A DNA stretch of 64,000 bases from Gemmatimonadota bacterium (GTDB taxonomy: Bacteria; Gemmatimonadota; Gemmatimonadetes; Gemmatimonadales; Gemmatimonadaceae). The notes below the pieces were generated by a model that was given only the letters and a program-made list of their open reading frames with translations, was not told where the DNA came from and ran no database searches. The stretch lies in contig CAUJFW010000239.1 of NCBI GenBank assembly GCA_963170075.1, positions 11,741 through 75,740 on the forward strand, read 5' to 3'. Positions 1-18,481 of this stretch are shown one piece after another; position 1 is the stretch's first letter; the number at the start of each line of letters is the position of its first letter. Position numbers and translations under genes: made by a program.

Positions 1-95
1 AACAGACTCCCGTCCCGCACGCGGAGATCGACACCCTTGAGCGCCGGTTCGGCCTGCCCCGGATAGCGAAAGGTGACGCCGCGAAGTTCGATCAC
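1..95 (-). CDS. ABC transporter ATP-binding protein, N-terminus only (runs off window edge)
   Basis: Not in the ORF track. GTG at 95 overlaps the methyltransferase stop (GTGA) and translates VIELRGVTFRYPGQAEPALKGVDLRVRDGSL, a typical ABC ATPase start just before Walker A. Confidence 0.8.
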   Translation of the reverse strand, partial: MIELRGVTFRYPGQAEPALKGVDLRVRDGSL

Positions 96-1168
96 GCCGT
101 TTGGCAGACCAGCAGCGTCTGACACACGCCGATATGATCGGTCTGCTCCACAATGCGCAGGCCCGCACGCTCCACGAGTTTGAGAAGCACGTCGGCGGCA
201 TACATCTGGCTGTTGCCGTTGGCGAGACTGGTGAAATAGAGCGATGTCATCTGCAGCGAAAACGCCGCCACTTCTCGCCGCTGACGGTCCCAGAACGGCT
301 CCATGATGAACACCAGCGTGTCGTCGGTGATCGCGGCGCGCACCTTCTCGAGAATGCCGACGATCTGATCGTCGGAGAAACAGTCGAGGAACTGGCTCAT
401 CCACACCGCGTCGTAACCGGTGGGCAGCGGCTTGTTCGCGTCCAGCAAGTCGGTGGGGTGGAACGACACGCGGTCGGTAAAGCCGTGCTCCTGCATGGTG
501 CCTTCGGCCAGCTTCACCATGTTGGGCAGATCGGCGATGCCCATGCGGATTCCGGGGTCGTACCGCAGACACTGCAGCGAAAAGCGCCCGGTGTTGCCGC
601 CGATATCGAGAATCGACCGCGGACCGTGCCGGGCGATCATCGGCATCACCAGCGGATAGGCGTCGTCAGAATAGAAGTGATCGAACGCATACCAACTGCG
701 TGTGGCCGCGGGCGGCAGGTATGCCAGCCCCTGATAAATGGTGCTCCAGTTGCCGAAGACACCAAGCCCTGCCGGACGCTGCTCCACGATGGACTCTTCC
801 AGCTTGCCCATGCCGTCGTAGCAGACGTCATGCGAGAAGTCCATGTTGGCAATGGTCATCTTGTCCTTGAGGATGAACCATCCCGTTTTGGTGAGCTTGT
901 ACACACCATCGCAGCAGGTGAGCAGGCCGATCCCCAACCCCGCCTCGAGCAGCACGCGCACGCCGTACTCGCTGAGCGCGCGCTCCTGCACGATCGCGTC
1001 CTGGGTCGCCCCGCCGGTCCGGTCGAGCATCGCCAGAATGCCCAGATTGCGCAGCGCGCGTGCCGCCTGAAACACCATCGGCGCAAACGCGATATGCTGC
1101 GCTTTCGTGATCGCGTCGGCGGCCGAGAGCGCATCCGTCTCGAAGTACGGCTGTGTCACAGTGGTCAC
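92..1168 (-). CDS. SAM-dependent O-methyltransferase (APE/flexirubin-cluster type)
   Basis: N-terminal dimerisation helix-turn-helix region, SAM motif LDIGGNTG, VWMSQFLDCFS. Start trimmed from the track (1282) to GTG at 1168; the start is uncertain. Confidence 0.85.
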   Translation of the reverse strand: MTTVTQPYFETDALSAADAITKAQHIAFAPMVFQAARALRNLGILAMLDRTGGATQDAIVQERALSEYGVRVLLEAGLGIGLLTCCDGVYKLTKTGWFILKDKMTIANMDFSHDVCYDGMGKLEESIVEQRPAGLGVFGNWSTIYQGLAYLPPAATRSWYAFDHFYSDDAYPLVMPMIARHGPRSILDIGGNTGRFSLQCLRYDPGIRMGIADLPNMVKLAEGTMQEHGFTDRVSFHPTDLLDANKPLPTGYDAVWMSQFLDCFSDDQIVGILEKVRAAITDDTLVFIMEPFWDRQRREVAAFSLQMTSLYFTSLANGNSQMYAADVLLKLVERAGLRIVEQTDHIGVCQTLLVCQTA

Positions 1169-1210
1169 GGGCAATTCCGGAGAGAGGCGGTGAGGCACGC
1201 GCCGCGCGCG

Positions 1211-1245
1211 ATCACAGGCGTAATCACAGGCGTAATCACAGGCGT
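1211..1245. repeat. 12-bp tandem repeat x3 (ATCACAGGCGTA) containing the upstream gene's stop codon
   Basis: Read directly: atcacaggcgta atcacaggcgta atcacaggcgt. Confidence 0.9.
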
Positions 1246-2462
1246 TTGAACACGAGCGACGTGTTGATGCCGCCGAACGCAAAGTTGTTGCTCACGACGT
1301 AACTGCAATCGAGTGCGCGTCCGGCGCCGACGATGTAGTCGAGCGGCGCACACCGCGGGTCCACCTCGGTGAGATTGATCGTCGGCGAGACCCAGCCGTC
1401 GCGCATCATCTCAATCGTCATCCACGCCTCGAGTGCACCGCAGGCGCCCAGCGTGTGCCCCATGTAACTCTTGAGCGAACTGACCGGCATGCGCTCGCCG
1501 TACACGGCGTTGGTGGCGTGACTCTCCGCCACATCGCCCTGGTCGGTTGCGGTGCCGTGCGCATTCACGTAGCCCACCTCGCTGGCCGGCAACGCTGCAT
1601 CGTCGAGTGCCAGGCGCATCGCCTGACGCATCATGTGTGTGTTGGGCGCGGTGATGTGCGTGCCGTCGGAGTTGGTACCAAAGCCGACGATCTCCGCGTA
1701 CATGCGTGCACCGCGCGCCACCGCGTGTTCGTACTCCTCGAGAATGAGCGTGCCCGCGCCTTCACCCAGCACCAGCCCATCACGCGCCGCATCGAAGGGC
1801 CGTGGTGTGGCCGACGGGTCGTTGTTGCGCACGCTCGTGGCATACAGCGTGTCGAAGATGGCGGCCTGCGTGACATCGAGTTCTTCGGCGCCACCCGCAA
1901 TCATCGCCGTCTGCCGTCCCGACTTCACGGCTTCATACGCGTAGCCGATCCCCTGACTGCCCGACGTGCATGCGCTCGACGTGGTGACCACGCGCCCCGT
2001 GACACCGAGATACACCCCGATGTTCACCGGCGCGGTGTGGCTCATCATCTTGATGTACGTGGTCGCGTTGATGCCTTCGGTGCGTTTCTGCGTGAGCATG
2101 CGCAGAAATTCCGCCAACGCCGACGGCGATCCGGACGACGATCCGTAGGCGACACCCATGTCGCCGCTCTTGACGAACGGATCGCCCAGCAATCCGGCGT
2201 CCTCGAGCGCCCGCTCGGCCGTGAGCGTCGCCATGAGCGCCACGCGCCCCATGCTGCGGGTACTCTTGCGATTGAAGTGGTGCGGCAGATCGAACGGCGC
2301 CGCCGGCGCGCCAAGGTTGGTGTTGAGCCCTTCGTACTGTCGCCAGTCGTCGATGATGCACACGGCATTCTTGCCGCTTTCCAGATGTGCGCGCACCGTG
2401 CGCCAGTCGTGCCCCAGCGGACTGATACAGGCCATCCCGGTCACCACGACCCGCTTGGTCAT
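1236..2462 (-). CDS. Beta-ketoacyl-ACP synthase (FabF-like; APE elongation KS, ApeR-like)
   Basis: Starts MTKRVVVTG. Cys-His-His triad motifs SSACTSG, NAHGTAT, KSYMGHTLG; ends SNNFAFGGINTSLVF. ATG at 2462 overlaps the KR stop. Confidence 0.93.
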   Translation of the reverse strand: MTKRVVVTGMACISPLGHDWRTVRAHLESGKNAVCIIDDWRQYEGLNTNLGAPAAPFDLPHHFNRKSTRSMGRVALMATLTAERALEDAGLLGDPFVKSGDMGVAYGSSSGSPSALAEFLRMLTQKRTEGINATTYIKMMSHTAPVNIGVYLGVTGRVVTTSSACTSGSQGIGYAYEAVKSGRQTAMIAGGAEELDVTQAAIFDTLYATSVRNNDPSATPRPFDAARDGLVLGEGAGTLILEEYEHAVARGARMYAEIVGFGTNSDGTHITAPNTHMMRQAMRLALDDAALPASEVGYVNAHGTATDQGDVAESHATNAVYGERMPVSSLKSYMGHTLGACGALEAWMTIEMMRDGWVSPTINLTEVDPRCAPLDYIVGAGRALDCSYVVSNNFAFGGINTSLVFKRL

Positions 2463-3184
2463 GACAGCCCGCCGTCCACACCGATCACCTGACGCGTGAT
2501 GTACGCGGCGCCTGGCGACATGAGGAAACTCACGACCGCCGCCACTTCCTCGGCGGCGCCAATGCGCTTGAGCGGGATGTGTTCGATGATCCGGTCGACC
2601 GGCATATCCTGCGTCATCTCGGTGGCAATCATACCGGGCGCCACGCAATTGACCGTGATCTGGCGCGACGCGAGTTCGAGTGCGAGTGCCTTGGTGGCGC
2701 CAATGATGCCGGCCTTGGCGGCGCTGTAGTTCACCTGACCGCGATTGCCCAGCACGCCCGACACCGATGAGAGCGTGACGATGCGTCCCGGCGCACGTCG
2801 GCGCACCATCGGCATCGAGAGCGGATGCAGAATGTTGTAAAAGCCGTCGAGATTGGTGCGCAGCACATCGTCCCAGTCGTCGCCCGACATGGCCGGAAAG
2901 ACGTTGTCTCGCGCGATACCCGCGTTGCACACCACGCCGTAGTAGCAGCCGTGTGCTTCGACATCGGCCAGCAGCGTCTCGGCAGCCATCTCGCGGTCAC
3001 GCACATCAAACTGCAAAATGCGGCAGCTCCGCCCCATCGATTCGACGATCTGCTGCACCTCGATGGCTTCGTCGCGGCGCGCGCGGCAATGCAGCACCAC
3101 GTTGAATCCGTCGCGGGCCAACGTAATGGCGATTGCGCGACCGATCCCCCGGCTGGACCCGGTGACCAACACCGTCTCACTCAT
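2459..3184 (-). CDS. 3-oxoacyl-ACP reductase (FabG-like SDR, ApeQ-like)
   Basis: TGSSRGIG Rossmann motif, NAG, YSAAKAG catalytic YxxxK. Confidence 0.95.
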   Translation of the reverse strand: MSETVLVTGSSRGIGRAIAITLARDGFNVVLHCRARRDEAIEVQQIVESMGRSCRILQFDVRDREMAAETLLADVEAHGCYYGVVCNAGIARDNVFPAMSGDDWDDVLRTNLDGFYNILHPLSMPMVRRRAPGRIVTLSSVSGVLGNRGQVNYSAAKAGIIGATKALALELASRQITVNCVAPGMIATEMTQDMPVDRIIEHIPLKRIGAAEEVAAVVSFLMSPGAAYITRQVIGVDGGLS

Positions 3185-3202
3185 CGGACACTCGTGACCG
3201 CA

Positions 3203-3661
3203 TCAGACGCGGCTCGTGTGCAGAAACTGCTGCACGTCATGCGGTTGAAAAACAGCGAGCGTGGCATCGATCGCAATGCCGACCCCTCGCACGGTACCGG
3301 AAAACGAACCCAGTCCACTGTCGTCCTGCAGCTCGCGCACCACGGTCACCTGCATGGTCGCGCCCACGGGCAACTGCGGCACGTTGCAGGTGAAGTGCCG
3401 GCTGCCAATGAGAAATCCCACCTTGGGCGGTTCACCGCGCGTGCGGGCGTCGCATCCCGCGAACGCCGCAATGGCCTGCGCCATGTACTCGAGGGCCACC
3501 CACGTACCCACATGACCTGCACGCACAAACGGACTGTCCGGGCGTATCGTGAGTTCCGCCGTCAGCGACTCGTCGTCGTATTGCACCACGCGATCGAGCA
3601 GCAGCATACGCTCGGTGTGCGGCACCACTTCTGCGACGGGGGGCATGGCGAGCATCGTCAT
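3203..3661 (-). CDS. Hotdog-fold 3-hydroxyacyl-ACP dehydratase (ApeP-like)
   Basis: VPHTERMLLLD, EYMAQAIAA and GFLIGSR motifs of the FabA-like APE dehydratase; translationally coupled to the KS gene. Confidence 0.88.
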   Translation of the reverse strand: MTMLAMPPVAEVVPHTERMLLLDRVVQYDDESLTAELTIRPDSPFVRAGHVGTWVALEYMAQAIAAFAGCDARTRGEPPKVGFLIGSRHFTCNVPQLPVGATMQVTVVRELQDDSGLGSFSGTVRGVGIAIDATLAVFQPHDVQQFLHTSRV

Positions 3662-4845
3662 GATTCACGCCCGAACACGAGGGCGGCGTTGGCACCGCCA
3701 AAGGCAAACGACGTGGAAAGCGTGGTGCGTGGCGGACGCCCCAACCGTTCACCCGGCACCACCTGATGGAGCGCTGGAATGTTGGCATCGGCGGCGCCGT
3801 CCCAGAGATGCGGTGGCAGCAGCCCGTCGCCATTGTCGTCCTGCATCGTGAGCCAGCAGATGGCCGCTTCGATGGCACCCGCCGCACCGAGCGTGTGTCC
3901 CGTAAGCGGCTTGGTGCCACTCACGGCGCAGGCGTCGCCGAAGATCGTGTGCACCACCGCGCCTTCCATCTCGTCATTCGCCTTCGAGCCGGTCGCGTGC
4001 AGGTTCACATATTCCACGTCACCGGCGGTGCGATCGGCGCGCGCGAGCGCCGCCTCGATCGCCAGCGTGGCACCGCGGCCCGAGGGATCGGGCGCGGAAA
4101 AGTGATGGCCGTCCGACGACTCGCCCCAGCCCAACAACCGAACCGTAGCCGGCTCGCGCGTCATGAGAAACAGCGCCGCCGCTTCGCCGATGTTGATCCC
4201 GTCGCGGTTGGCCGAAAACGGATTGCAGCGCGTGGCACTCACGAGATTGAGCGACGAAAATCCGGCCACGGTGAACGCGCACAGTGAATCCACGCCGCCG
4301 GTGATCACCGCATCGGCGAGGCCCATGCCGAGCAGCCGTGCCGCACTGGCCATCGCTTTGGCGCCCGACGCGCAGGCGCTCGAATGCACGTACGCCGGCC
4401 CGCGGGTGCCGAATTCGAGACTCAAGAACGCTGCCACCGACCCCAGCTCCTGCTGGGCGAGCGCGAAGCTCTGCGGCAGGGCTCCGGCCGCCACGTATTC
4501 ACGAATCGCCGTTTCGCTCTCGCCGATGCCCGAGGTGCTGGTGCCGACCACCACGGCCACACGCGACGCGCCATACCGCGCAATCGCGGCCTCGATGACG
4601 GGGCGCAACTGGTTGGCAGCCGCCAGCGCCAGCTGGTTGTTGCGGCTGCGCACGGCAACGGGGTGCGAGGCCAGCGACGGCAGCGAGGTGGTGACCAAGC
4701 CCACGGGCAATTCCCGCCCCGGCGAAAAGACCGCCGAGGGCAATACCCCGCTGTCCGCCGCGAACACGCGCCGCGCGACGTCCGCGCGGGACGCACCGAC
4801 GGCGCACACCACACCAACCTCGTTGAGGTAGGACGCGGCCTTCAC
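3658..4845 (-). CDS. Beta-ketoacyl-ACP synthase (ApeO-like)
   Basis: SSACASG, NLHATG, KPLTGHTLG motifs. GTG at 4845 overlaps the lipoprotein stop (GTGA). Confidence 0.92.
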   Translation of the reverse strand: MKAASYLNEVGVVCAVGASRADVARRVFAADSGVLPSAVFSPGRELPVGLVTTSLPSLASHPVAVRSRNNQLALAAANQLRPVIEAAIARYGASRVAVVVGTSTSGIGESETAIREYVAAGALPQSFALAQQELGSVAAFLSLEFGTRGPAYVHSSACASGAKAMASAARLLGMGLADAVITGGVDSLCAFTVAGFSSLNLVSATRCNPFSANRDGINIGEAAALFLMTREPATVRLLGWGESSDGHHFSAPDPSGRGATLAIEAALARADRTAGDVEYVNLHATGSKANDEMEGAVVHTIFGDACAVSGTKPLTGHTLGAAGAIEAAICWLTMQDDNGDGLLPPHLWDGAADANIPALHQVVPGERLGRPPRTTLSTSFAFGGANAALVFGRES

Positions 4846-5402
4846 TTGTTCTCCGGCACCGTGGTAATCACCAGACGATATCCGAATTGATGATTCTGCA
4901 GCGTGACCTTGCCCTTCCAACGCGGCATCGTGTCGTACGTGATGTTCGTGATTTCGTCCGCACCCTTGAGCAGGGTTCTGGCGTTGGGCGCGTCTCGTAG
5001 CGACCACCCCGATGGCAACGCGGCACGGACTGCGTCGGCGGGCCAGAGCGAGAGTTGCATGTCCGACAGGATATCGCTGCCGCGGACGTCGCGCGGAAGC
5101 ATCGGACTGCGTGCTTCATCAAGCTTTGTGCCGTCGTACCGCAGCGTGAACAGTCGCGTCCCGAACCCAAGCGCCACCAGCGTGACCATATCCGGCGACA
5201 CTTCGAGCACGGCATCGAAATCGACGATGCGACCATCGCGCTCGACGTGCACCCGCTGCTGGACGCTCAGACTGCCGGCAAAGCTGACCGGCGACAACGC
5301 CAACAACGGTCGATCGTCCGGCACGGGCGGCGCCGCGGCGGCGCCGCGGCACGCCGTCACCAGCACGAGCGCCAGCGCCAGCCGACGCCGAAGCTGGGGC
5401 AT
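4842..5402 (-). CDS. DUF3261-like lipoprotein (ApeN-like)
   Basis: Signal peptide MPQLRRRLALALVLVTAC with lipobox Cys; LVALGFGTRLFTLRYDG and DMQLSLWP segments; same position as in APE clusters. Confidence 0.75.
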   Translation of the reverse strand: MPQLRRRLALALVLVTACRGAAAAPPVPDDRPLLALSPVSFAGSLSVQQRVHVERDGRIVDFDAVLEVSPDMVTLVALGFGTRLFTLRYDGTKLDEARSPMLPRDVRGSDILSDMQLSLWPADAVRAALPSGWSLRDAPNARTLLKGADEITNITYDTMPRWKGKVTLQNHQFGYRLVITTVPENK

Positions 5403-5596
5403 CACGCGCCACGGGTGTACCGATCTGACGCCGTCGCGCGGGCGGGCAGGCGCGACAGATCGCGAAAACTGAGCCAAAAACAATACCGCGTGGGTCGTGG
5501 GATGTGTGCTGCGAAGCGGGATGGTCAAAATATCCATCGCGCCCTCTCGGCGCAGCGGGAACAGGCGCGCAATGTCGGGCGCTAGATTCGCCCATC

Positions 5597-6409
5597 ATGG
5601 ATCTGCCGTCCCGACCATCCCGTCTGGGCGAACGCTTGCTGTGGCTCACGCTGGCGATCGCACTCACCGTCGCGCTGCTGGCGGTGAGGGGCGTGCTGTC
5701 CGGGCCCCAGGCCGCGATGGGCGTGTTGCCGCTGGCCGCCGTCATTGCGATGGGCGTCAGCCGTCAGCAATCGGGCGTCTTCGCGCAACCGCTGCTTCGC
5801 GTACACACCGCTCGACCGGAGCTCGCACTCACCTTTGACGACGGGCCTGATCCGCGATGGACGCCCGCATTGCTCGATCTGCTCGAGGCGGGCGGACACC
5901 GGGCCACCTTCTTCGTGATTGGCGCCCGCGCCGCGCAGCATACCGACTTGCTGGCGGAGATCGCGAAACGCGGGCACGAACTCGCCAACCACACCTGGTC
6001 GCACTCGTACCTGACGGTCTTTCAGTCGCCGGACACGCTGGCGCGCGACCTCGATCGCACCAACCAGGTGATCGAAGCCGCAGCCGGACGCGTGCCGCGC
6101 TGGTTTCGCCCGCCGGTTGGTCTTTTGTCGCCCCGGGTGCCGCTGGGGGTTCGTCGGGCGGGACTCGAGCTGGTGGCGTGGACTGCCACCGCCCGCGATG
6201 GCGTGGCGCGCACGTCCACGGCCGAAGCGATGGCCCGGCTGGAACCGGCGATCGTCGCCGGCGCCATTCTGGTCATGCACGATGCACCCGTCGCCGGCGA
6301 CCGCCCGCTGATCGTGCTCGAGCTGACTCGGCAGCTGCTGGGCCGCATGGAGACCGAGAATTTGGTGTCCGTGACGTTGTCAGAACTTTGCGAGCCCGGC
6401 CTGCGTTGA
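5597..6409 (+). CDS. Membrane-anchored polysaccharide deacetylase (NodB/CE4)
   Basis: LTFDDGP, HELANHTWSH, FRPPVG and ILVMHD motifs; two N-terminal hydrophobic segments. Confidence 0.9.
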   Translation: MDLPSRPSRLGERLLWLTLAIALTVALLAVRGVLSGPQAAMGVLPLAAVIAMGVSRQQSGVFAQPLLRVHTARPELALTFDDGPDPRWTPALLDLLEAGGHRATFFVIGARAAQHTDLLAEIAKRGHELANHTWSHSYLTVFQSPDTLARDLDRTNQVIEAAAGRVPRWFRPPVGLLSPRVPLGVRRAGLELVAWTATARDGVARTSTAEAMARLEPAIVAGAILVMHDAPVAGDRPLIVLELTRQLLGRMETENLVSVTLSELCEPGLR

Positions 6410-12132: not shown

Positions 12133-13669
12133 GAGTTCTGCGGGCCGACGCATCTCGTTCGGCGACCGCGCCTGCACGATTCAGGATGTCGTGGATCTGG
12201 CGCATCGCCGGGCGGTGGCGGAGCTCTCGAGCGATCCGGCGGTGCGCGCGCGCCTCCAACGCGGCGCCGATTTTGTCGATCGTCTGCTCGCGGAGGACGG
12301 CGTCATCTATGGCGTGACCACGGGCTACGGCGATTCGTGCACGGTCGTGGTGCCGCCCGACCTGGTCGACGAACTTCCCGAACGCCTGTTCACCTACCAT
12401 GGCTGCGGGCTGGGCGAGTATCTCACGCCCGAGCAGACGCGCGCCGTGATGGTGACGCGACTCTGCTCACTCGCCAAGGGGTTTTCAGGTGTCAGTCTCC
12501 GGCTGCTCGAGCAGTTGGTGGCGCTGTTGCAGCACGATATCCTGCCACTGATTCCCGCCGAGGGATCGGTGGGCGCGAGCGGCGATCTGACGCCGTTGTC
12601 GTATGTCGCGGCCGCGCTCTGCGGGCAGCGCGATGTGATCTACAACGGGGTGCCCATGTCGGCGGCCGACGCGTTGGCACAGGCCGGTTTGGAACCGCTG
12701 CGCCTGCGGCCCAAGGAAGGGCTGGCGCTCATGAACGGCACGTCGGTCATGACAGCCCTCGCGTGTCTGGCCTACGATCGCGCGCAGTACACGAGCGCAC
12801 TGGCCACGCGCATCACCGCGCTCGCGTCGTTGTCGCTCGACGGCAATCCCAAACATTTCGATCACGCCCTCTTCGCTGTCAAACCGCACGCCGGACAGCA
12901 GCGTGTCGCCGCACGCATCTTTGAAGATCTCGCCGCCACGCCGCCCGAGCGCAACGAACACCGGCTGCAGGATCGGTATTCCATTCGCTGTGCACCGCAT
13001 GTGATCGGCGTGCTGGAAGACGCGTTGCCGTTCCTGTTCACCACGATCGAGAACGAACTCAACAGCGCCAACGACAATCCGATCATCGATCCGGATGCGG
13101 AGCTGGTGCTGCACGGCGGGCATTTCTACGGCGGCCATATCGCGTTCGCGATGGATTCGCTGAAAAACCTCATCGCCAACGTGGCCGATCTGCTCGACCG
13201 GCAATTTGCCCTGCTGGTGGACACGCGCTACAGCAACGGACTCCCCTCCAACCTGTCCGGTGCCACCGGCGCACGTTCGGCCATCAACCACGGACTCAAG
13301 GCGCTGCAGATCGCATCGTCGGCGTGGACGGCCGAGGCGCTCAAGTTGACCATGCCGGCGTCGGTGTTTTCGCGCTCCACCGAGTGCCACAATCAGGACA
13401 AGGTGAGCATGGGGACCATCGCCTCGCGCGATTGCCTGCGCGTGCTCGACCTCACCGATCAGGTGCTGGCGGCGATGCTGATTGCCGTGCGGCAGGGTAT
13501 TACGCTCCGGGACACGCACGGTGCCCTGCACCTCACCACCCCGGTTGGCGATTTCATGGCGATGCTGGACGCACAGATTCCCTTTGTCGGCGAAGACCGC
13601 GCGCTTGATCGCGATCTGCGCGGGTTGGTGTCCGCCATCCGCGCCCGGACCTGGCCGTTGTATGACTGA
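12119..13669 (+). CDS. MIO-dependent aromatic amino acid ammonia-lyase (HAL/PAL/TAL family)
   Basis: YGVTTGYG, GSVGASGDL (ASG MIO), KEGLALMNGT, QDRYSIRC and NQDKVSMG motifs. Confidence 0.95.
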   Translation: MHHVESSAGRRISFGDRACTIQDVVDLAHRRAVAELSSDPAVRARLQRGADFVDRLLAEDGVIYGVTTGYGDSCTVVVPPDLVDELPERLFTYHGCGLGEYLTPEQTRAVMVTRLCSLAKGFSGVSLRLLEQLVALLQHDILPLIPAEGSVGASGDLTPLSYVAAALCGQRDVIYNGVPMSAADALAQAGLEPLRLRPKEGLALMNGTSVMTALACLAYDRAQYTSALATRITALASLSLDGNPKHFDHALFAVKPHAGQQRVAARIFEDLAATPPERNEHRLQDRYSIRCAPHVIGVLEDALPFLFTTIENELNSANDNPIIDPDAELVLHGGHFYGGHIAFAMDSLKNLIANVADLLDRQFALLVDTRYSNGLPSNLSGATGARSAINHGLKALQIASSAWTAEALKLTMPASVFSRSTECHNQDKVSMGTIASRDCLRVLDLTDQVLAAMLIAVRQGITLRDTHGALHLTTPVGDFMAMLDAQIPFVGEDRALDRDLRGLVSAIRARTWPLYD

Positions 13670-14105
13670 TCCGGTGGTGTCGCCCGCGCGCAGCTGGTCG
13701 GCGGAGATTGCGCTCAAGATCCAGTTTTACGATCTCGATCCGATGCAGGTGGTGTGGCACGGCAACTATGCGCGCTATTTCGAACAGGCGCGCTGCGCAT
13801 TGCTCGATTCGATCGGCTACAACTACCCGGAGATGAAGGCCTCGGGGTACGCCTGGCCCGTGATCGACATGCACGTGCGTTATCTCCAGCCAGCCACCTT
13901 CGGGCAAGATGTGATCGTGCGCGCCGAGATTGTCGAGTGGGAACACCGGCTGCGCATGCAGTATCTCATTCGGGATGCCAGCACCTCGCTGCGACTCACC
14001 AAAGGCTCGACGGTGCAGGTGGCGGTCAGTCTCGAGTCGAAACTGATGTGCCTCCAGTCGCCGTCCATTCTCTTCGAGAAGCTCGGCGTACCGGAGCCGC
14101 TGTGA
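13662..14105 (+). CDS. Acyl-CoA/ACP thioesterase (4HBT/YbgC family)
   Basis: FYDLDPMQVVWHGNYARYFE motif. Confidence 0.92.
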   Translation: MTDPVVSPARSWSAEIALKIQFYDLDPMQVVWHGNYARYFEQARCALLDSIGYNYPEMKASGYAWPVIDMHVRYLQPATFGQDVIVRAEIVEWEHRLRMQYLIRDASTSLRLTKGSTVQVAVSLESKLMCLQSPSILFEKLGVPEPL

Positions 14106-14764
14106 CGCGACGCGTGACCGGACTCGGCGTTGCGCTTCTGATGGCACTGTCGGCCACCGGCGGTGGCAACGTGGCGCAGGCACAGCGCACGCCTGCCGTC
14201 GACGACGGCGCGCTGCTGCGGATTCAGAGTCTGGTCGCGCGCCCCGATGCCCTGTGTGGCGAGTTCGACCAGCAGAAATCACTGGTGGGACTCAAGCGCC
14301 CGGTGCAATCGTCCGGGCGGTTCTGCGTGCTCAAGGATCGCGGCGTCTTGTGGTCGACGCAGAAGCCCTTTGCGTCCACGCTGCAGCTCTCCCGCGCGGA
14401 GATTGTCGAGTCTCAGGGCTCGCGTGTGACCTCTCGCCTTACGGCCGGCGATGAACCATCCGTCGCCGTGATCAGCGATCTCCTGTTCTCGGTGCTGGCC
14501 GGAGATTTCGGTCGCCTGCGCAGCAACTTCAGCATTGACGCCAGCATCGACGGCGCTGCGTGGCGCGCGCGGATGACCCCCAGGGACGACGGCATGAAAC
14601 GGGTGATCGGTGCCATCGAGTTGGGCGGTGGTGAGTTTGTCCGGCAGATCATCATCACGGAAGCCTCCGGGGATCGCACCGTCATCGCCTTCACTGGATT
14701 TGCCGCCGGCATGACGGCGTTGCGCGCCGATGAACTCCGCGCCTTCGGTACAACGCGGAAGTGA
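14102..14764 (+). CDS. LolA-like outer-membrane lipoprotein carrier
   Basis: Signal peptide, GEFDQQK...SSGRF...GVLWSTQKPF; GTGA coupling to the thioesterase gene. Confidence 0.82.
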   Translation: MTRRVTGLGVALLMALSATGGGNVAQAQRTPAVDDGALLRIQSLVARPDALCGEFDQQKSLVGLKRPVQSSGRFCVLKDRGVLWSTQKPFASTLQLSRAEIVESQGSRVTSRLTAGDEPSVAVISDLLFSVLAGDFGRLRSNFSIDASIDGAAWRARMTPRDDGMKRVIGAIELGGGEFVRQIIITEASGDRTVIAFTGFAAGMTALRADELRAFGTTRK

Positions 14765-14774
14765 TGACCGTGCT

Positions 14775-17144
14775 GTGACACGCACGTTTCGCGTTTTGGC
14801 CTGGAGCTGGTTGCTGCTCGTGGTGGTCGCGCTCGCCGTCAACGCGAAGTGGTGGCTCGTCGAGCGGCGCGGTCTCGAAACAGATTTCCTCGCGCTGCTC
14901 CCGGCCCGTGAAGGCGACGCGGTAGTCAGTCACGCGTTCGAACATGTCACCGAGGCCGCACAGCAGAATGTGTTGGTGTTGGTGGGGGCGCCCGAGTGGC
15001 CGGTGGCGCGCGCGGCCGCCGAGGCGTACATGGCCGTGCTCTCCACGCATAGCGACAAGATCCGCACGTCGTCACTCACCGCGCTCACGTCGGACAGTGC
15101 GTTGGCGCCCTGGTGGAGAAACCGGCGTGCGCTGCTGACCGACGAGGACCGCGCGCAGCTCCGCGGCACCGACGGCGACGACTGGTCGCAGCGGGCACTG
15201 CAGGATCTGATGAGTCCCATCGGCACGGGACGCATCGGCGCGTGGCAGGATGATCCGTTTGGACTGTTCCGCCGCTGGCTTCGTGCACGGGCCGCCGAGT
15301 CGCCCGTTCGCCCAATGGACGGTGTGTTGCGCGTGGACGACGGCGACGTACGGTACGTGGTATTGCCCATGCGGCTCGCCGACGAAGCGTTTGCACTGTC
15401 GACCCAACGCACGGTCGAACCATTGCTGGCGCAGGCCAAGGCCGCCGCACTCGCGAAAGACCCTACCGTTCGCGTGTTGTCCGCCGGCATGATCTTCCCG
15501 GCCGCCGCCGCCGCCGCGCAAGCGAACCGGGAATTCTCCACGATCGGCTGGGGCTCGATCCTCGGCATCGTACTTCTCACGTGGATCACCTTTCGCTCGC
15601 TGCGCCCCATCGGCCTCGTCTTGCTGTCACTTGGCGTCGGCACGTTGGCCGCGCTCGCAGTGACCGCGTGGCTGTATCCGCAGGTGCACCTGATCACGCT
15701 GGTGTTTGGCGCGAGTCTCATCGGCGTGGCCGAAGATTACGGCATGCACTACCTGTGCATTCACGACCGCCATGCACGAGGCGGGCTAGTGGTGATGCGC
15801 GACTCGCTGCCTGGATTGGCCCTCGCCCTGCTCACCACGATCGTGTCGTTCTTCGGGTTGGGGCTGAGCCCGTTTCCAGGATTGCAGCAGATGGCCGTCT
15901 TTTCGGCTGTGGGGCTGTCAGCCGCGTGGATCACCGTGGTGCTGTGGTTTCCGTTGCTGGACGGCCCGCAGGTGGGATTGGCCCGCGTGGTCACCTGGTT
16001 CAACGCGTTGCGTCTCTGGTGGCAGCGATTGCTGGCCGGACGGGCGCGTTGGCCGTTGGCCGCCGCGGCACTGGTGGCCATGGTCGTCGGGCTGCGACGA
16101 CTGGTGCCCAACGATGATATCCGACTCCTGCAGAGTCTTCCCGCGCACATTCTGCAGGAGCAGGTGGATGTGGGTCAGATTCTGCAGCAACCGTTCGAGG
16201 CACAATTTTTCGTGGTGCGCGCGCCGACCGAGAGCGGCGTGCTGGAACGGGAAGAAGCGTTGCGCGTGCGCCTCGATTCGCTCGTACGCGCGGGCGTGAT
16301 CGCCGGCTACTCCGCCGTTTCGTCTTGGGTGCCGTCGCCGCGCACCCAGCAACGCGACCGAGAGCTGGTGGACCGCCGACTGTTGGGCGAAGGCGGTCCG
16401 CTCGACCGTCTGCGAGTGGCGCTCGGCGAAGCGCCGTCGTGGTCGGCGCGCCTGCGCGCGGACATCAGTGATGTCACGGCGGCCGGAACAGCCAACACGG
16501 CCACCGTGCCGCTGACGATTGCGACATGGTTGGCGAGCCCCGTGTCGGAGCCGATGCGTCCGCTCTGGCTGGGACCGCAGGGTTCGGACCTCGTGAGCGT
16601 GGTGACACTCAAGAACGTCGATGCGTCCCGCACCGAAGCCCTCGTCAACGCCGCACGCGATCTACCGGGCGTGGTGTGGGCCGATCAGGTGGCCAGCATC
16701 TCGCACGTCCTTGGGCGGTATCGCGAGCGTATGTCGTGGGTGCTGCTGGCCAGCTACGGCGTGATCTGGCTGCTCTTTCTGCCTCGGTACGGCCGGTCGG
16801 CGTGGCGCGTGTTGGCGCCGAGTATCACCGCGAGTCTGTCAGCCCTGGCCGTGGTGGGTCTCTTGGGAGAACCGTTGCAGCTCTTTCACATTCTCGCACT
16901 CTATCTCGTCTTTGGAATCGGCGTGGATTTCGCCATCTTCTTGAGCGAACGCACACACTCCAAGGGACAGGACGTGTGGTTTGCCGTCGGGCTGGCGGCC
17001 ACCAGCACCGTGTTGTCCCTTGGTCTTTTGGCACTGAGTGACACGCCGGTGTTGCACGCGTTCGGACTGGTGATGTTGGTCGGTGTTGTGGTCTCGATGG
17101 TGGTCGCACCACTATTCTGCTCGCTCGAGCGCGGTCACCGATAG
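14775..17144 (+). CDS. MMPL/RND-family exporter
   Basis: Two bundles of TM helices separated by large periplasmic loops; FGASLIGVAEDYG and GIGVDFAIF motifs. Start GTG 14775 inferred. Confidence 0.88.
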   Translation: MTRTFRVLAWSWLLLVVVALAVNAKWWLVERRGLETDFLALLPAREGDAVVSHAFEHVTEAAQQNVLVLVGAPEWPVARAAAEAYMAVLSTHSDKIRTSSLTALTSDSALAPWWRNRRALLTDEDRAQLRGTDGDDWSQRALQDLMSPIGTGRIGAWQDDPFGLFRRWLRARAAESPVRPMDGVLRVDDGDVRYVVLPMRLADEAFALSTQRTVEPLLAQAKAAALAKDPTVRVLSAGMIFPAAAAAAQANREFSTIGWGSILGIVLLTWITFRSLRPIGLVLLSLGVGTLAALAVTAWLYPQVHLITLVFGASLIGVAEDYGMHYLCIHDRHARGGLVVMRDSLPGLALALLTTIVSFFGLGLSPFPGLQQMAVFSAVGLSAAWITVVLWFPLLDGPQVGLARVVTWFNALRLWWQRLLAGRARWPLAAAALVAMVVGLRRLVPNDDIRLLQSLPAHILQEQVDVGQILQQPFEAQFFVVRAPTESGVLEREEALRVRLDSLVRAGVIAGYSAVSSWVPSPRTQQRDRELVDRRLLGEGGPLDRLRVALGEAPSWSARLRADISDVTAAGTANTATVPLTIATWLASPVSEPMRPLWLGPQGSDLVSVVTLKNVDASRTEALVNAARDLPGVVWADQVASISHVLGRYRERMSWVLLASYGVIWLLFLPRYGRSAWRVLAPSITASLSALAVVGLLGEPLQLFHILALYLVFGIGVDFAIFLSERTHSKGQDVWFAVGLAATSTVLSLGLLALSDTPVLHAFGLVMLVGVVVSMVVAPLFCSLERGHR

Positions 17145-17188
17145 CCTCGTTTCGCCCCTTCGCCTTCCGCACCTCCAGCATTCTCCCC

Positions 17189-18481
17189 ATGCACACCACT
17201 TCCACAGACGTCGTGATCATCGGCGCGGGTCCGTCCGGCACGGTTGCCGCGTCGATGCTCGTGCGCAAAGGATGGTCGGTTGAAGTGGTGGAGCGCGGGC
17301 ATTTTCCGCGCTTCTCCATCGGCGAAAGTCTGTTGCCGCAGTCGATGGTCTTTCTCGAAGAAGCGGGATTGCTCGCGGACATCGAAGCGATCGGCTTTCA
17401 GTTCAAGGATGGGGCCGCCTTTCACAAGCAAGGCGTGGACACGGCCATCTACTTTCCGGACAAGAGTACACCGGGTCCGGCCACGACGTTTCAGGTGCGT
17501 CGCGACATCTTCGATGACACGCTGGCGAAAGGTGCTGCCGCCCAAGGCGCACACATCGTGTTTGGCGAAGAAGTGATCGCCTTTGAAAGCAGTGACGCCG
17601 GCGCGACCGTTACCGTACGCAACGAGCAGGGCGAGTTGCGGCGCATCGAAGCACGATTCGCGCTCGACGCCAGCGGATTCGGTCGCACGCTCAGTCGGTT
17701 GCTCGACCTCGAGGAGCCGTCGGAGTTTCCGATGCGGCGCTCGGTGTTTTGTCACGTGCGCGATCACATCACCGAACCGACGTTCGATCGCAACAAGATT
17801 CTGATCTCCGTCAACCCCAATAATCCGGAGATCTGGTACTGGCTCATCCCGTTGCACGATGGCCTCTCGTCCGTCGGCGCCGTGGGCGAACAGGCGATGA
17901 TCGAAGCTGCGGGCGACACCGATCACGAGCGGCTCTGGTCGCTCATCGGTGAGGTCGGGTATCTGGCCAAGGTGCTCGAACACGCCGAGATCGTGCGACC
18001 AGTCGGCACGATTGTGGGATATGCGTGCAGTGTGAAGAGTCTGATCGGCCCCAGCTACGCGCTGCTCGGGAATGCGGCCGAGTTTCTCGATCCGGTGTTT
18101 TCATCCGGCGTCACCATTGCGCTCAAGTCGGCCAGTCTCGCCACGGCGCTGATCGATCGACACCTGCGCGGTGACGCCGTCGACTGGACGGCGGAATTTG
18201 TCGAGCCGCTCTATGTCGGCATCGAGACCTTTCGCGCCTGTGTCGAAGCGTGGTATTCGGGGCGTCTGCAGCGCATCATCTTCAATCGCCCTGACACCAT
18301 GACCGATGCGCAGCGCATGGTGACGGCGGTACTGGCCGGTTATGCGTGGGACCCCAACAACGCGATCGTGCGCGAGCCGGCGCGTATGCTGCGCCTGCTC
18401 GACGAACTCACGTCGGCGCGGGGACCGGCTGCACCGCACCGTGACGACGCAGTTCCAATGCCGGCAGCCGCGACGTCATAA
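17189..18481 (+). CDS. FAD-dependent oxidoreductase of the flavin-dependent halogenase family
   Basis: GAGPSG, RFSIGES, FQFKDGAAF (putative catalytic Lys), WYWLIP (WxWxIP), FLDPVFSSG. Confidence 0.85.
   Translation: MHTTSTDVVIIGAGPSGTVAASMLVRKGWSVEVVERGHFPRFSIGESLLPQSMVFLEEAGLLADIEAIGFQFKDGAAFHKQGVDTAIYFPDKSTPGPATTFQVRRDIFDDTLAKGAAAQGAHIVFGEEVIAFESSDAGATVTVRNEQGELRRIEARFALDASGFGRTLSRLLDLEEPSEFPMRRSVFCHVRDHITEPTFDRNKILISVNPNNPEIWYWLIPLHDGLSSVGAVGEQAMIEAAGDTDHERLWSLIGEVGYLAKVLEHAEIVRPVGTIVGYACSVKSLIGPSYALLGNAAEFLDPVFSSGVTIALKSASLATALIDRHLRGDAVDWTAEFVEPLYVGIETFRACVEAWYSGRLQRIIFNRPDTMTDAQRMVTAVLAGYAWDPNNAIVREPARMLRLLDELTSARGPAAPHRDDAVPMPAAATS

What the first reader, a model, noticed from the sequence alone, without database searches (positions are those of the whole stretch)
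1..18481. Aryl polyene-type type II PKS cluster in a Gemmatimonas-like genome
Seen: 19 linked genes (2 KS + CLF, 2 ACP, KR, DH, ligase-DH, MIO lyase, GT2, two acyltransferases, TE, LolA, MMPL, lipoprotein, methyltransferase, halogenase-like flavoprotein, deacetylase), many with overlapping stop/start codons. Established: this gene set defines aryl polyene clusters (APE, xanthomonadin, flexirubin families), characterised mainly in Proteobacteria and Bacteroidota. Inference: the host looks like Gemmatimonadota, whose described pigments are, to my knowledge, carotenoids and bacteriochlorophyll, so this could encode an uncharacterised, possibly methylated and halogenated, aryl polyene lipid.
Basis: partly seen in the sequence, partly recalled or inferred. 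Interest (0 to 1): 0.72.

Follow-up and report, generated by a model that had tools for sequence, protein, structure and literature searches.

The report
Aryl polyene lipid cluster in Gemmatimonadaceae
A wastewater bacterium of the family Gemmatimonadaceae carries an intact gene cluster, probably acquired horizontally, of the very common "aryl polyene" outer-membrane pigment type, so this is a new host and accessory-gene variant of a known system rather than a new kind of system.

Summary
All 19 genes are present with the stated domains, many have overlapping stop/start codons, and all are under purifying selection (dN/dS 0.03-0.21). The cluster is an ape-type aryl polyene (APE) lipid cluster. 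It has an ortholog of every E. coli apeB-apeR gene except apeG (25-58% identity), in the same order apart from one inverted block. KS2 and the CLF match the solved pair 6QSP (which I recall is ApeO:ApeC). The additions are a TAL-like MIO lyase, a flavin halogenase-like enzyme with all halogenase motifs, and a NodB-type deacetylase. The host is Gemmatimonadaceae, shown by IspG neighbours and by matching MAG contigs.

Two corrections apply. First, the cluster runs off the left edge of the window. In near-identical contigs it continues with an ABC exporter, a third ACP and a second KS/half-KS pair. Second, the same 17-gene core, including the lyase and often the halogenase, is common in Burkholderiales, Xanthomonadales and others. 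The Gemmatimonadaceae copies form one clade nested among these, which points to horizontal acquisition.

No paper describing APE clusters in this phylum was found. Product chemistry is inferred, not shown. Interest is modest, about 0.33.

The parts
1..95 (-). N-terminus of an ABC transporter ATPase (DrrA-like), cut by the window edge. It is the first gene of the part of the cluster that lies outside the window.
   Evidence: Translation of 1-83. The full 308-aa gene on L001 has PF00005 and TIGR01188 drrA at 230 bits. Its start overlaps the methyltransferase stop by 4 nt.
92..1198 (-). SAM methyltransferase, ApeB / FlxJ family. Predicted to methylate the aryl head group.
   Evidence: PF00891 and PF21212. 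NF053543 at 472.9 bits, compared with 474.9 bits for E. coli ApeB. 49% identical to E. coli ApeB.
1236..2462 (-). Ketosynthase KS1 (ApeR type)
   Evidence: NF006587 at 684 bits, above the cut-off of 470. Cys-His-His-Lys intact. 58% identical to E. coli ApeR.
2459..3184 (-). Ketoreductase (ApeQ / FabG2)
   Evidence: TIGR01831 at 363.5 bits, above the cut-off of 338.85. 58% identical to E. coli ApeQ.
3203..3661 (-). Hot-dog dehydratase (ApeP)
   Evidence: PF22817 ApeP-like, E 5e-18. 34% identical to E. coli ApeP.
3658..4845 (-). Ketosynthase KS2 (ApeO type), the elongating KS partner of the CLF
   Evidence: NF006618 at 455 bits, above the cut-off of 407. Matches 6qsp_A at E 5e-88, compared with about 1e-42 for FabF structures. 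Catalytic residues intact.
4842..5537 (-). DUF3261 protein (ApeN, LolB-like)
   Evidence: PF11659, E 9e-39. 30% identical to E. coli ApeN.
5597..6409 (+). NodB-type polysaccharide deacetylase with an N-terminal transmembrane segment. It is absent from the E. coli ape cluster and essentially absent from the proteobacterial loci examined (weak hits of 28-30% in 2 loci).
   Evidence: PF01522, E 2e-34. Motifs TFDD, HTWSH, RPP and LVMHD are present. It holds the same position in 4 other Gemmatimonadaceae genomes (L007/L167, L008, L010, L231) and gives no match to the E. coli locus.
6631..7383 (+). Half-size chain-length factor (ApeC)
   Evidence: PF13723, E 9e-60. Matches 6qsp_B at E 6e-24. Asp replaces the active-site Cys.
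7376..8155 (+). Lysophospholipid acyltransferase (ApeD)
   Evidence: PF01553. 39% identical to E. coli ApeD.
8142..8399 (+). Acyl carrier protein 1 (ApeE)
   Evidence: NF006617 at 97 bits, above the cut-off of 70. Has the GLDSID serine. 58% identical to E. coli ApeE.
8411..8677 (+). Acyl carrier protein 2 (ApeF)
   Evidence: NF003757 at 107 bits, above the cut-off of 65. Has the DIDSID serine.
8715..10385 (+). Aryl-acid adenylating enzyme fused to an ApeI dehydratase (ApeH-ApeI fusion)
   Evidence: PF00501 plus PF22818. 32% identical to E. coli ApeH. The same fusion is present in proteobacterial relatives.
10430..11185 (+). GT2 glycosyltransferase (N-terminal half of ApeJ)
   Evidence: PF00535. 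55% identical to the first half of E. coli ApeJ.
11185..12132 (+). LpxL-like acyltransferase (C-terminal half of ApeJ)
   Evidence: PF03279. 37% identical to the second half of E. coli ApeJ.
12119..13669 (+). MIO-dependent aromatic amino-acid ammonia-lyase, most likely a tyrosine ammonia-lyase that supplies the starter acid
   Evidence: PF00221, E 6e-158. ASG motif present. His aligns with HAL His83. HNQD as in PAL/PAM, with the C-terminal half PAL/TAL-like at 1e-25 versus 4e-12 for HAL. ASG in 129 of 130 and NQD in 130 of 130 cluster homologs.
13662..14105 (+). 4HBT-fold thioesterase (ApeK)
   Evidence: PF13279 and PF03061. 51% identical to E. coli ApeK.
14102..14764 (+). LolA-like periplasmic carrier (ApeL)
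   Evidence: PF19574 and PF03548. 25% identical to E. coli ApeL.
14730..17144 (+). MMPL/RND-type transporter (ApeM)
   Evidence: PF03176. 30% identical to E. coli ApeM.
17189..18481 (+). Flavin-dependent halogenase-like enzyme
   Evidence: PF04820. Best solved relative is 3nix at E 2e-94, followed by halogenases ChlB4, PltA, CmlS and CndH. GAGPSG, K74, WYWLIP and FLDPVFSSG are present, and 90 of 90 homologs keep the last three motifs.

Best explanation
This is a functional ape-type aryl polyene lipid (APEL) biosynthesis and export cluster in a Gemmatimonadaceae chromosome.

Proposed mechanism (inferred unless marked otherwise):
1. The MIO lyase deaminates tyrosine to 4-coumarate.
2. The adenylating half of the ligase-dehydratase fusion loads that aryl acid onto an ACP.
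3. KS1 (ApeR) and the KS2:CLF heterodimer (ApeO:ApeC), together with the ketoreductase and the two hot-dog dehydratases, extend it with malonyl units into a conjugated polyene.
4. The ApeB-family methyltransferase and the flavin halogenase-like enzyme decorate the phenol ring.
5. The LPLAT, the GT2 and the LpxL-like acyltransferase attach the chromophore to an amino-sugar-phosphoglycerol lipid. This follows the structure shown for Xenorhabdus APELs.
6. The extra NodB-type deacetylase may remove the N-acetyl group of that sugar.
7. The MMPL transporter, the LolA-like carrier and the DUF3261 protein move the lipid to the outer membrane. There it would act as a yellow antioxidant and photoprotective pigment, as shown for proteobacterial APEs.

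The cluster was most probably acquired once by an ancestor of a Gemmatimonadaceae subclade from a proteobacterial-type donor. It was then rearranged: one block was inverted, apeG was lost, and a deacetylase, an ABC exporter, a third ACP and a second KS/half-KS pair were added.

Sub-claim probabilities: APE-type identity 0.95. Cluster functional 0.85. Tyrosine/coumarate starter 0.65. Ring methylation 0.75. Halogenation 0.5. Horizontal origin 0.7. Sugar de-N-acetylation 0.35.
For: Shown by tools:
- All 19 domains are present.
- There is an ortholog of every E. coli apeB-apeR gene except apeG, in the same order apart from one inverted block, at 25-58% identity.
- KS2 matches 6qsp_A at 5e-88 and the CLF matches 6qsp_B at 6e-24.
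- Catalytic residues are intact in the KSs, ACPs, lyase, halogenase and deacetylase.
- dN/dS is 0.025-0.21 for all genes.
- The cluster is conserved in at least 6 other Gemmatimonadaceae species-level MAGs. It also appears in independent assemblies of the same species from NCBI, ENA, JGI and Logan.
- Four biofilm metatranscriptome runs cover the whole cluster.

Host:
- IspG neighbours are Gemmatimonadaceae and Gemmatimonadales.
- GC content is uniform across the cluster and its flanks.
- The window matches a 708-kb contig.

Horizontal origin:
- Outside the family, the nearest relatives of the cluster genes are Burkholderiales, Xanthomonadales and other Pseudomonadota. They carry the same collinear 17-gene core, including the lyase and often the halogenase.
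- In a KS1 tree the Gemmatimonadaceae clade is monophyletic in 100% of bootstraps and nested among these sequences in 89% of 300.

From the literature:
- Roles of ApeB-R and the APEL structure (GalNAc-phosphate-glycerol anchor): bioRxiv 10.1101/2020.12.19.423268 and PMC8253772.
Against: - No chemistry has been done. The product, its chain length and its decorations are all inferred.
- The lyase passes no NCBIfam equivalog cut-off: TAL BagA 404 against 1000, FlxA 309 against 700, HAL 401 against 524. Its N-terminal part is more HAL-like than PAL-like, so substrate choice rests on two positions.
- The ligase's sub-threshold match to 4-coumarate-CoA ligase (TIGR02372) does not discriminate. E. 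coli ApeH, which uses 4-hydroxybenzoate, has the same best hit.
- The closest solved relative of the halogenase-like protein (3nix) has no assigned activity.
- The metatranscriptome signal is low and even, and could be DNA carry-over.
- The horizontal-transfer inference rests on neighbour-joining with a long-branch paralog root. The donor is unresolved. GC content and codon usage look native. 70% identity across phyla is not unusual in itself, since IspG shows the same.
Confidence: 0.8

Rival explanations
1. It is a flexirubin-type cluster. The aryl polyene acid would be esterified to a dialkylresorcinol, as in Bacteroidota, rather than to an amino-sugar phospholipid.
For: A tyrosine ammonia-lyase-like starter enzyme and a halogenase-like enzyme are typical of flexirubin pathways. 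The best solved relative of the halogenase-like protein comes from Cytophaga (3nix). NCBIfam flexirubin models FlxJ, FlxB, FlxA and LolA2 all give hits.
Against: - All four Flx hits fall below their cut-offs.
- E. coli Ape proteins score the same against these models: FlxJ 474.9 against 472.9, FlxB 265 against 272, LolA2 55 against 48. The hits are therefore generic to APE clusters.
- No DarA or DarB was found. DarB models score only about 20 bits, and only on KS1. Nothing of the kind appears in the scanned genes of the remaining 45 kb of window or in the 7.5 kb beyond the left edge.
- The LPLAT, GT2 and LpxL-like anchoring genes are present and in the E. coli ape order.
Confidence: 0.07
2. 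It is a xanthomonadin-type cluster that starts from 3- or 4-hydroxybenzoate made from chorismate.
For: The halogenase-like gene and outer-membrane export genes resemble xanthomonadin clusters. Xanthomonadales (Arenimonas, Lysobacter) are among the nearest relatives. E. coli ApeH uses 4-hydroxybenzoate.
Against: - No XanB2-type enzyme is among the cluster genes. An MIO lyase is present where no starter-supply gene exists in E. coli.
- There are two ACPs, whereas xanthomonadin clusters have one.
- The described Lysobacter cluster has a different gene set.
Confidence: 0.04
3. The cluster is ancestral to Gemmatimonadota (or was exported from them) rather than imported from Pseudomonadota.
For: GC content and codon usage are indistinguishable from the flanks. 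The Gemmatimonadaceae copies are diverse, with up to 23% KS1 divergence, and share lineage-specific features. In 11% of bootstraps they are basal. Conserved enzymes such as IspG also show about 70% identity across phyla.
Against: - Only seven species-level lineages surfaced, all in one family and forming one clade.
- Divergence between Gemmatimonadaceae and the other sequences (mean 0.305) lies within the spread among the other sequences themselves (maximum 0.363).
- The nearest outsiders are Pseudomonadota for cluster genes, but Acidobacteriota and Chloroflexota for IspG.
- The single collinear operon form occurs across many proteobacterial orders, as well as in Binatia and Syntrophobacteraceae.
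Confidence: 0.25
4. The starter is not tyrosine-derived. The lyase would act on histidine (urocanate starter) or phenylalanine (cinnamate starter), giving a non-phenolic head group.
For: The N-terminal 114 residues match HAL best, at 1e-20 against 1e-14 for PAL. The residue before the selectivity His is Tyr, a combination that I do not recall from characterised TALs. All specific NCBIfam models fall below cut-off.
Against: - The position of the HAL catalytic Glu (recalled from memory, not tool-checked) carries Gln within HNQD, as in PAL, PAM and TAL. NQD is present in 130 of 130 homologs.
- His, not the Phe of PALs, occupies the selectivity position.
- Known APE, flexirubin and xanthomonadin head groups are hydroxyphenyl.
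- A ring methyltransferase of the ApeB family and a phenol-type halogenase fit a phenolic ring.
Confidence: 0.12

Closest known systems
E. coli CFT073 / Xenorhabdus doucetiae ape cluster (apeA-R), which makes aryl polyene lipids (APELs)
   Same: There is an ortholog of every apeB-apeR gene except apeG, in the same order apart from one inverted block. The features in common are the KS:half-CLF heterodimer (6QSP), two ACPs, two hot-dog dehydratases, FabG2, an ApeB-family methyltransferase, LPLAT plus GT2/acyltransferase anchoring genes, and LolA/MMPL/DUF3261 export.
   Different: - Identity is only 25-58%.
- apeG (COG4648) and apeA are absent.
- apeH and apeI are fused, and apeJ is split in two.
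- The DUF3261..KS1 block is inverted to form a divergent operon pair.
- Added genes: MIO lyase, halogenase-like flavoprotein and NodB deacetylase, plus an ABC exporter, ACP3 and KS3/KS4 outside the window.
- The starter is probably 4-coumarate from tyrosine rather than 4-hydroxybenzoate from chorismate.
Uncharacterised lyase/halogenase-bearing ape-type clusters of Burkholderiales (Collimonas, Pseudoduganella, Janthinobacterium, Iodobacter, Rubrivivax), Xanthomonadales (Arenimonas, Lysobacter niastensis), Binatia and Syntrophobacteraceae
   Same: These share the same 17-gene core, including the MIO lyase (66-74% identical), the fused ligase-dehydratase and the split GT2/acyltransferase, often with the halogenase-like gene (47-53%). 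KS1 is 67-73% identical and KR 62-72%.
   Different: They are one collinear operon and carry the apeG-like membrane protein (68 loci). They lack the deacetylase, the ABC exporter, ACP3 and KS3/KS4. In the stretches seen, most have either the halogenase or the methyltransferase next to the MMPL gene, and rarely both (limited by the 10-kb flanks). I know of no product characterised from this subfamily, and found none in my searches.
Flexirubin clusters of Bacteroidota (Chitinophaga, Flavobacterium)
   Same: A tyrosine ammonia-lyase supplies the starter. The head group is a methylated, sometimes chlorinated, hydroxyphenyl polyene. The halogenase-like protein is about 50% identical to a Cytophaga flavoprotein (3nix).
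   Different: No dialkylresorcinol genes are present. All flexirubin-specific NCBIfam models fall below cut-off, at scores equal to those of E. coli Ape proteins. Phospholipid and sugar anchoring genes are present.
Xanthomonadin and Lysobacter xanthomonadin-like pigment clusters
   Same: A type II PKS with a KS plus half-size CLF makes an aryl polyene. Xanthomonas clusters include a halogenase. The pigment sits in the outer membrane and has a photo- and oxidative-protective role.
   Different: Their starter comes from XanB2-type chorismate chemistry, which has no counterpart here. They have a single ACP and a different gene order and content.

Membership tests
ape-type aryl polyene BGC (core-gene definition of Grammbitter et al. 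2020: apeO/R, apeE/F, apeC, apeI/P, apeQ, apeM) | Two ketosynthases of ApeO and ApeR type with intact Cys-His-His | tested here: met
   NF006618 at 455 bits and NF006587 at 684 bits, both above cut-off. 6qsp_A at 5e-88. Residues checked. 47% and 58% identical to the E. coli proteins.
ape-type aryl polyene BGC | Half-size chain-length factor (ApeC, PF13723) lacking the active-site Cys | tested here: met
   PF13723 at 9e-60. 6qsp_B at 6e-24. Asp at the Cys position.
ape-type aryl polyene BGC | Tandem ACPs (ApeE, ApeF) | tested here: met
   NF006617 and NF003757, both above cut-off. Serine motifs present.
ape-type aryl polyene BGC | Two hot-dog dehydratases (ApeI, ApeP) and the FabG2 ketoreductase (ApeQ) | tested here: met
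   PF22818 and PF22817. TIGR01831 at 363.5 bits, above 338.85.
ape-type aryl polyene BGC | MMPL/RND transporter ApeM with LolA-like ApeL and DUF3261 ApeN | tested here: met
   PF03176, PF19574 and PF11659. Orthologous positions in the E. coli cluster.
ape-type aryl polyene BGC | COG4648 membrane protein ApeG. It is reported as conserved across APE clusters but is not on the core-gene list. | tested here: not met
   tblastn with two proteobacterial ApeG-like proteins finds nothing credible in the 64-kb window or in 11 Gemmatimonadaceae loci. It does find a match in 68 proteobacterial loci.
ape-type aryl polyene BGC | The product is an aryl polyene carboxylic acid bound to a membrane lipid | not testable with these tools
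   Needs extraction, UV/MS and NMR.
Flexirubin biosynthesis cluster | Proteins reach the NCBIfam equivalog cut-offs for FlxA, FlxB, FlxJ and LolA2 | tested here: not met
   Scores against cut-offs: FlxA 309 against 700, FlxB 272 against 340, FlxJ 473 against 560, LolA2 48 against 125. E. coli Ape proteins give the same FlxB, FlxJ and LolA2 scores.
Flexirubin biosynthesis cluster | Dialkylresorcinol genes darA/darB in or beside the cluster | tested here: not met
   DarB models score about 20 bits, and only on KS1. No such gene is among the scanned genes of the window or the left extension. The rest of the genome was not searched.
Xanthomonadin cluster | XanB2-type hydroxybenzoate synthase and a single ACP | tested here: not met
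   No such domain appears among the cluster genes. Two ACPs are present.
MIO-dependent aromatic amino-acid ammonia-lyases / tyrosine ammonia-lyase | Ala-Ser-Gly MIO precursor and a full-length PF00221 domain | tested here: met
   GSVGASGDL motif present. PF00221 at 5.6e-158.
MIO-dependent aromatic amino-acid ammonia-lyases / tyrosine ammonia-lyase | TAL-specific signature: His at the selectivity position, Gln rather than the HAL Glu, and a TAL equivalog score | tested here: inconclusive
   His aligns with HAL His83. HNQD as in PAL and PAM. But BagA TAL scores 404 against 1000, FlxA TAL 309 against 700 and HAL 401 against 524, all below cut-off. The equivalence to RsTAL His89 and HAL Glu414 rests on my memory of the literature.
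Flavin-dependent halogenases (carrier-protein/phenol type) | GxGxxG, catalytic Lys, WxWxIP and FxDPxFSxG motifs | tested here: met
   GAGPSG, K74 in GFQFKDGA, WYWLIP and FLDPVFSSG. Conserved in 90 of 90 homologs. Halogenases ChlB4, PltA, CmlS and CndH match at 1e-39 to 1e-30.
Flavin-dependent halogenases (carrier-protein/phenol type) | Demonstrated halogenating activity | not testable with these tools
   The closest solved relative, 3nix, is annotated only as a flavoprotein/dehydrogenase.

The most novel reading that the evidence does not exclude
The Gemmatimonadaceae version makes a structurally new aryl polyene lipid. The head group would be a coumarate-primed, methylated and halogenated hydroxyphenyl polyene. 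The anchor would be a de-N-acetylated (free-amine) amino-sugar-phosphoglycerol. A second polyketide chain would be built by the clade-specific ACP3/KS3/half-KS4 set. Export across the inner membrane would be driven by an ABC-2 exporter that replaces the missing ApeG. This would give a non-carotenoid, non-bacteriochlorophyll pigment class to a phylum known, as far as I am aware, only for carotenoids and bacteriochlorophyll.
Probability: 0.25. Interest if true: 0.5.

Novelty: new variant of a known kind. Interest (0 to 1): 0.33.

Why it matters
[quoted passage not shown] Full products are known only from Xenorhabdus and E. coli-type clusters, and the described hosts are mainly Proteobacteria and Bacteroidota.

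This locus extends the family to Gemmatimonadota, a poorly cultured phylum that is abundant in soil and wastewater. It suggests these bacteria have a further outer-membrane antioxidant pigment besides carotenoids.

It also documents cross-phylum movement of a 20-kb lipid-pigment pathway. The move was followed by remodelling: loss of apeG, and gain of a deacetylase, an ABC exporter and a second KS set. These changes offer natural experiments on which ape genes are dispensable and how the lipid anchor varies.

The lyase-bearing subfamily to which it belongs is large and, as far as I could find, chemically uncharacterised, so one expressed member would annotate hundreds of genomes. None of this changes current understanding of how APE systems work.

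Tried and rejected
- Gene calling by GC3 threshold alone missed or mis-framed many genes. I replaced it with a frame plot, Pfam scans, and gene calls from near-identical contigs.
- An exact-protein lookup of the 619-aa ORF at 27291-29150 found nothing, probably because I used the wrong start.
- Promoter and terminator scans of the divergent region (5300-6800) and downstream of the halogenase gene (18300-19600) gave nothing above shuffles.
- No tRNA genes or Rfam families are in the window.
- Literature searches for aryl polyene or arylpolyene together with Gemmatimonad* returned only surveys that do not link the two. The Cimermancic 2014 paper is not held.
- The search for relatives of KS3 returned only the sister MAG and a primary fatty-acid synthase locus, L247. 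The origin of the extra KS set stays unknown.
- KS4 shows no BLASTP similarity to the ApeC-type CLF.
- I initially read the flexirubin-specific NCBIfam hits and the 4-coumarate-CoA ligase hit as signs of flexirubin affinity and coumarate use. The E. coli control shows they are generic to ape clusters, so I dropped them as evidence.
- The first tree attempt, with Biopython neighbour-joining and bootstraps, timed out. I redid it with my own NJ code on 82 sequences.
- Metatranscriptome coverage is reported only as weak evidence, because it is low and even and may include DNA.

Full report
**Observation**

The window is GC-rich (62-68%), so raw ORF lists are crowded. A frame plot of positional GC shows six genes on the minus strand (92-5537) and thirteen on the plus strand (5597-18481).

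- An ApeB/FlxJ-family methyltransferase
- Two full ketosynthases
- A FabG2 ketoreductase
- An ApeP dehydratase
- A DUF3261 protein
- A NodB-type deacetylase
- A half-size PF13723 chain-length factor
- An LPLAT acyltransferase
- Two ACPs
- An AMP-ligase fused to an ApeI dehydratase
- A GT2
- An LpxL-like acyltransferase
- An MIO lyase
- A 4HBT thioesterase
- A LolA-like protein
- An MMPL transporter
- A halogenase-like flavoprotein

Independent gene calls on contigs 99.5-99.8% identical to the window give the same boundaries. Ten junctions overlap by 1-14 nt.

KS1 and KS2 keep Cys-His-His-Lys. The CLF has Asp in place of the Cys and lacks the C-terminal half. Both ACPs keep the phosphopantetheine serine. 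Against the nearest related MAG, all 19 genes have dN/dS of 0.025-0.21 (dS is near saturation, so the values are approximate).

**Boundaries**

The left limit of the finding is the window edge, not the cluster edge. Bases 1-95 encode the start of an ABC ATPase whose start overlaps the methyltransferase stop.

In a 708-kb contig of GCA_963852425.1, and in ENA, JGI and Logan contigs of the same species, the operon continues with these genes:
- A DrrA-like ATPase
- An ABC-2 permease
- A 96-aa protein that is a third ACP (NF006617, LDSLD motif)
- A 372-aa KS with intact catalytic residues (31% identical to KS2)
- A 244-aa KS-N-only protein without the Cys

A PIN-domain gene follows.

On the right, the genes after the halogenase are small outer-membrane beta-barrel proteins and an HpnE-like amine oxidase. 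After those come ispG, a histidine operon and other housekeeping genes. I found no evidence that these belong to the pathway.

**What it is**

A DNA search of E. coli genomes finds the ape cluster in 821 of 5426 genomes, at 65.5% nucleotide identity over KS1-KR. Its RefSeq annotation gives the order: methyltransferase, CLF, LPLAT, ACP, ACP, COG4648, adenylating enzyme, ApeI, GT2, thioesterase, LolA, MMPL, DUF3261, KS, hot-dog, FabG2, KS.

That is the window's gene order, except that the block DUF3261..KS1 (plus the methyltransferase) is inverted and placed divergently upstream. Identities to E. coli run from 25% (LolA) to 58% (KS1, KR, ACP1). The window's GT2 and LpxL-like genes match the two halves of ApeJ.

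KS2 and the CLF match chains A and B of PDB 6QSP at 5e-88 and 6e-24, far above FabF structures. To my recollection, 6QSP is the Xenorhabdus ApeO:ApeC complex.

The published roles of ApeB-R and the Xenorhabdus APEL structure supply the mechanistic frame. In that structure an aryl polyene is esterified to GalNAc-phosphate-glycerol, which carries a conjugated fatty acyl chain and a saturated acyl chain.

**Accessory enzymes**

*The lyase.* It has the Ala-Ser-Gly MIO motif and a full PF00221 domain. Its His in TYHGCGLG aligns without gaps to His83 of P. putida HAL. From memory, this is the position of the TAL selectivity His and of the PAL Phe.

Its C-terminal active-site segment reads HNQD, as in PAL, PAM and TAL. 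That segment matches those enzymes at about 1e-25, against 4e-12 for HAL. NQD is present in all 130 cluster-linked homologs and ASG in 129.

This combination favours a tyrosine ammonia-lyase. However, every specific NCBIfam model is below its cut-off, so I rate the tyrosine/coumarate starter at about 0.65.

The ligase's best NCBIfam hit, the PYP-type 4-coumarate-CoA ligase, is not informative. E. coli ApeH, a 4-hydroxybenzoate enzyme, gives the same best hit.

*The flavoprotein.* It has GxGxxG, the catalytic Lys, WxWxIP and FxDPxFSxG. It matches carrier-protein-dependent halogenases at 1e-39 to 1e-30. Its closest solved relative, 3nix from Cytophaga at 2e-94, has no assigned activity.

*The deacetylase.* It has the NodB metal and catalytic motifs and an N-terminal membrane segment. 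It sits between the two divergent operons in 4 other Gemmatimonadaceae genomes (L007/L167, L008, L010, L231). It is essentially absent from the proteobacterial loci, with only weak hits of 28-30% in 2 of them.

Because the known APEL anchor contains GalNAc, removal of the N-acetyl group from the sugar is a reasonable hypothesis. It is untested.

**Host**

IspG, encoded at 24109-25623 of the same window, has Gemmatimonadaceae and Gemmatimonadales MAGs as its nearest relatives (91-71%). Acidobacteriota and Chloroflexota follow, and no Pseudomonadota appear in the top 80.

The closest copies of the cluster are on contigs labelled Gemmatimonadaceae or Gemmatimonas. GC content is uniform across the cluster and its flanks, and the region lies in a 708-kb contig. 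Family-level placement is secure. The genus was not determined.

The sequence is common in wastewater, activated-sludge and biofilm metagenomes. Four biofilm metatranscriptome runs hold contigs that cover the entire cluster at low, even depth. This is compatible with transcription but does not exclude DNA carry-over.

**Distribution and origin**

Searches of one genome per species with KS1 and with the MMPL protein found the cluster in six other Gemmatimonadaceae MAGs. All six share the split architecture and the deacetylase where the contig reaches that far. The ABC/ACP3/KS3/KS4 extension is present in two of them and absent in one.

All other hits were Pseudomonadota (many Burkholderiales, Xanthomonadales, Nitrosospira and Methylobacillus), plus a few Binatia and Syntrophobacteraceae. 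These carry one collinear operon: CLF-LPLAT-ACP-ACP-(ApeG-like)-ligase/DH-GT2-AT-lyase-TE-LolA-MMPL-(halogenase or methyltransferase)-DUF3261-KS2-DH-KR-KS1. The lyase is 66-74% identical and KS1 67-73% identical.

The ApeG-like gene is found in 68 of those loci and in none of the Gemmatimonadaceae sequences.

The Gemmatimonadaceae clade is monophyletic in 100% of replicates. The remaining sequences are monophyletic in only 11% of 300 replicates. Divergence between Gemmatimonadaceae and the others (mean 0.305) lies within the spread among the others (maximum 0.363).

Together with the discordant nearest neighbours of IspG, this supports a single horizontal acquisition followed by amelioration and remodelling. 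I rate it at about 0.7, because the method is simple, the root branch is long and the donor is unresolved.

**Comparison with known families**

The locus meets every core-gene criterion used to define ape clusters and fails only on ApeG.

It is not a flexirubin cluster by the tests available. FlxA, FlxB, FlxJ and LolA2 models are below cut-off. For the three tested (FlxB, FlxJ, LolA2), E. coli Ape proteins give equal scores. No darAB is present in the 64-kb window or the 7.5 kb beyond it.

It is not xanthomonadin-type either, having no XanB2-like enzyme and two ACPs.

Relative to characterised systems it is a variant: a lyase-primed, halogenase- and deacetylase-bearing ape cluster. Relative to sequenced genomes it belongs to a large proteobacterial subfamily whose product I could not find described.

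Four literature searches found no paper that links aryl polyenes to Gemmatimonadota. The library does not cover subscription journals, and antiSMASH-based surveys may have counted such clusters without comment.

**Verdict**

It describes a member of the most widespread known BGC family, acquired from outside the phylum, with clade-specific accessory genes.

It is worth a note and would make a reasonable heterologous-expression target. A specialist would not be surprised by it. Interest is 0.33, rated as a new variant of a known kind.

Noticed in passing
L001:13102-17469 (beyond window position 1; CAWKSW010000007.1): The operon continues past the window edge with a DrrA-like ABC ATPase, an ABC-2 permease and a third ACP (96 aa). 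It then has a KS with intact Cys-His-His (372 aa; best solved match 6qsp_A) and a 244-aa KS-N-only partner without the Cys. This second minimal KS/CLF/ACP set is present in two other Gemmatimonadaceae MAGs and absent in one. No close relatives were found outside the family.
   Followed up: partly
L001:17717-18375: A PIN-domain gene with a small upstream ORF (VapBC-like toxin-antitoxin arrangement) sits directly after the last KS gene. It marks the likely left end of the cluster.
   Followed up: no
window 18831-23755: Five small predicted outer-membrane beta-barrel proteins lie here (18831-19466, 19540-20154, 21641-22303, 22376-23050, 23027-23755). Several have signal peptides and a C-terminal Phe. 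They are interrupted by an HpnE-like amine-oxidase flavoprotein (20177-21490). The 19540 ORF and the oxidase also lie next to the cluster in other Gemmatimonadaceae MAGs, in two of them on the opposite flank. A functional link is not established.
   Followed up: partly
proteobacterial loci L011-L244: In the proteobacterial relatives, the slot between the MMPL and DUF3261 genes holds either the halogenase-like gene (74 loci) or the methyltransferase (21 loci), and rarely both within the stretch seen (2 loci). The Gemmatimonadaceae version has both, in different places. The 10-kb flanks limit this count.
   Followed up: partly
window 1-20000, runs X25-X28: Four biofilm metatranscriptome runs contain contigs covering the whole cluster at low, even depth. 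The highest bin spans 6004-6670, which covers the end of the deacetylase gene and the 221-bp gap before the CLF. Strand information is not available, so DNA carry-over cannot be excluded.
   Followed up: partly
window 30046-37532: A histidine biosynthesis operon (hisG, hisD, a HisA/HisF-family gene, hisIE) contains an inositol-monophosphatase-family gene at 36085-36912, possibly a HisN-type histidinol-phosphatase. My frame calls between 32.3 and 36.1 kb are unreliable.
   Followed up: no
window 27291-29150: A 619-aa ORF with coding-like GC3 but no Pfam match lies next to a cupredoxin gene (29167-29715) and a DUF6992 gene (26814-27248).
   Followed up: no
L005 (JGI 3300056827, Ga0558118_12865): This contig, 98.8% identical to the window with 7 small gaps, has disrupted gene calls for the CLF, LPLAT and KS2. 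The cause is either assembly indels or a decaying copy of the cluster in one population.
   Followed up: no
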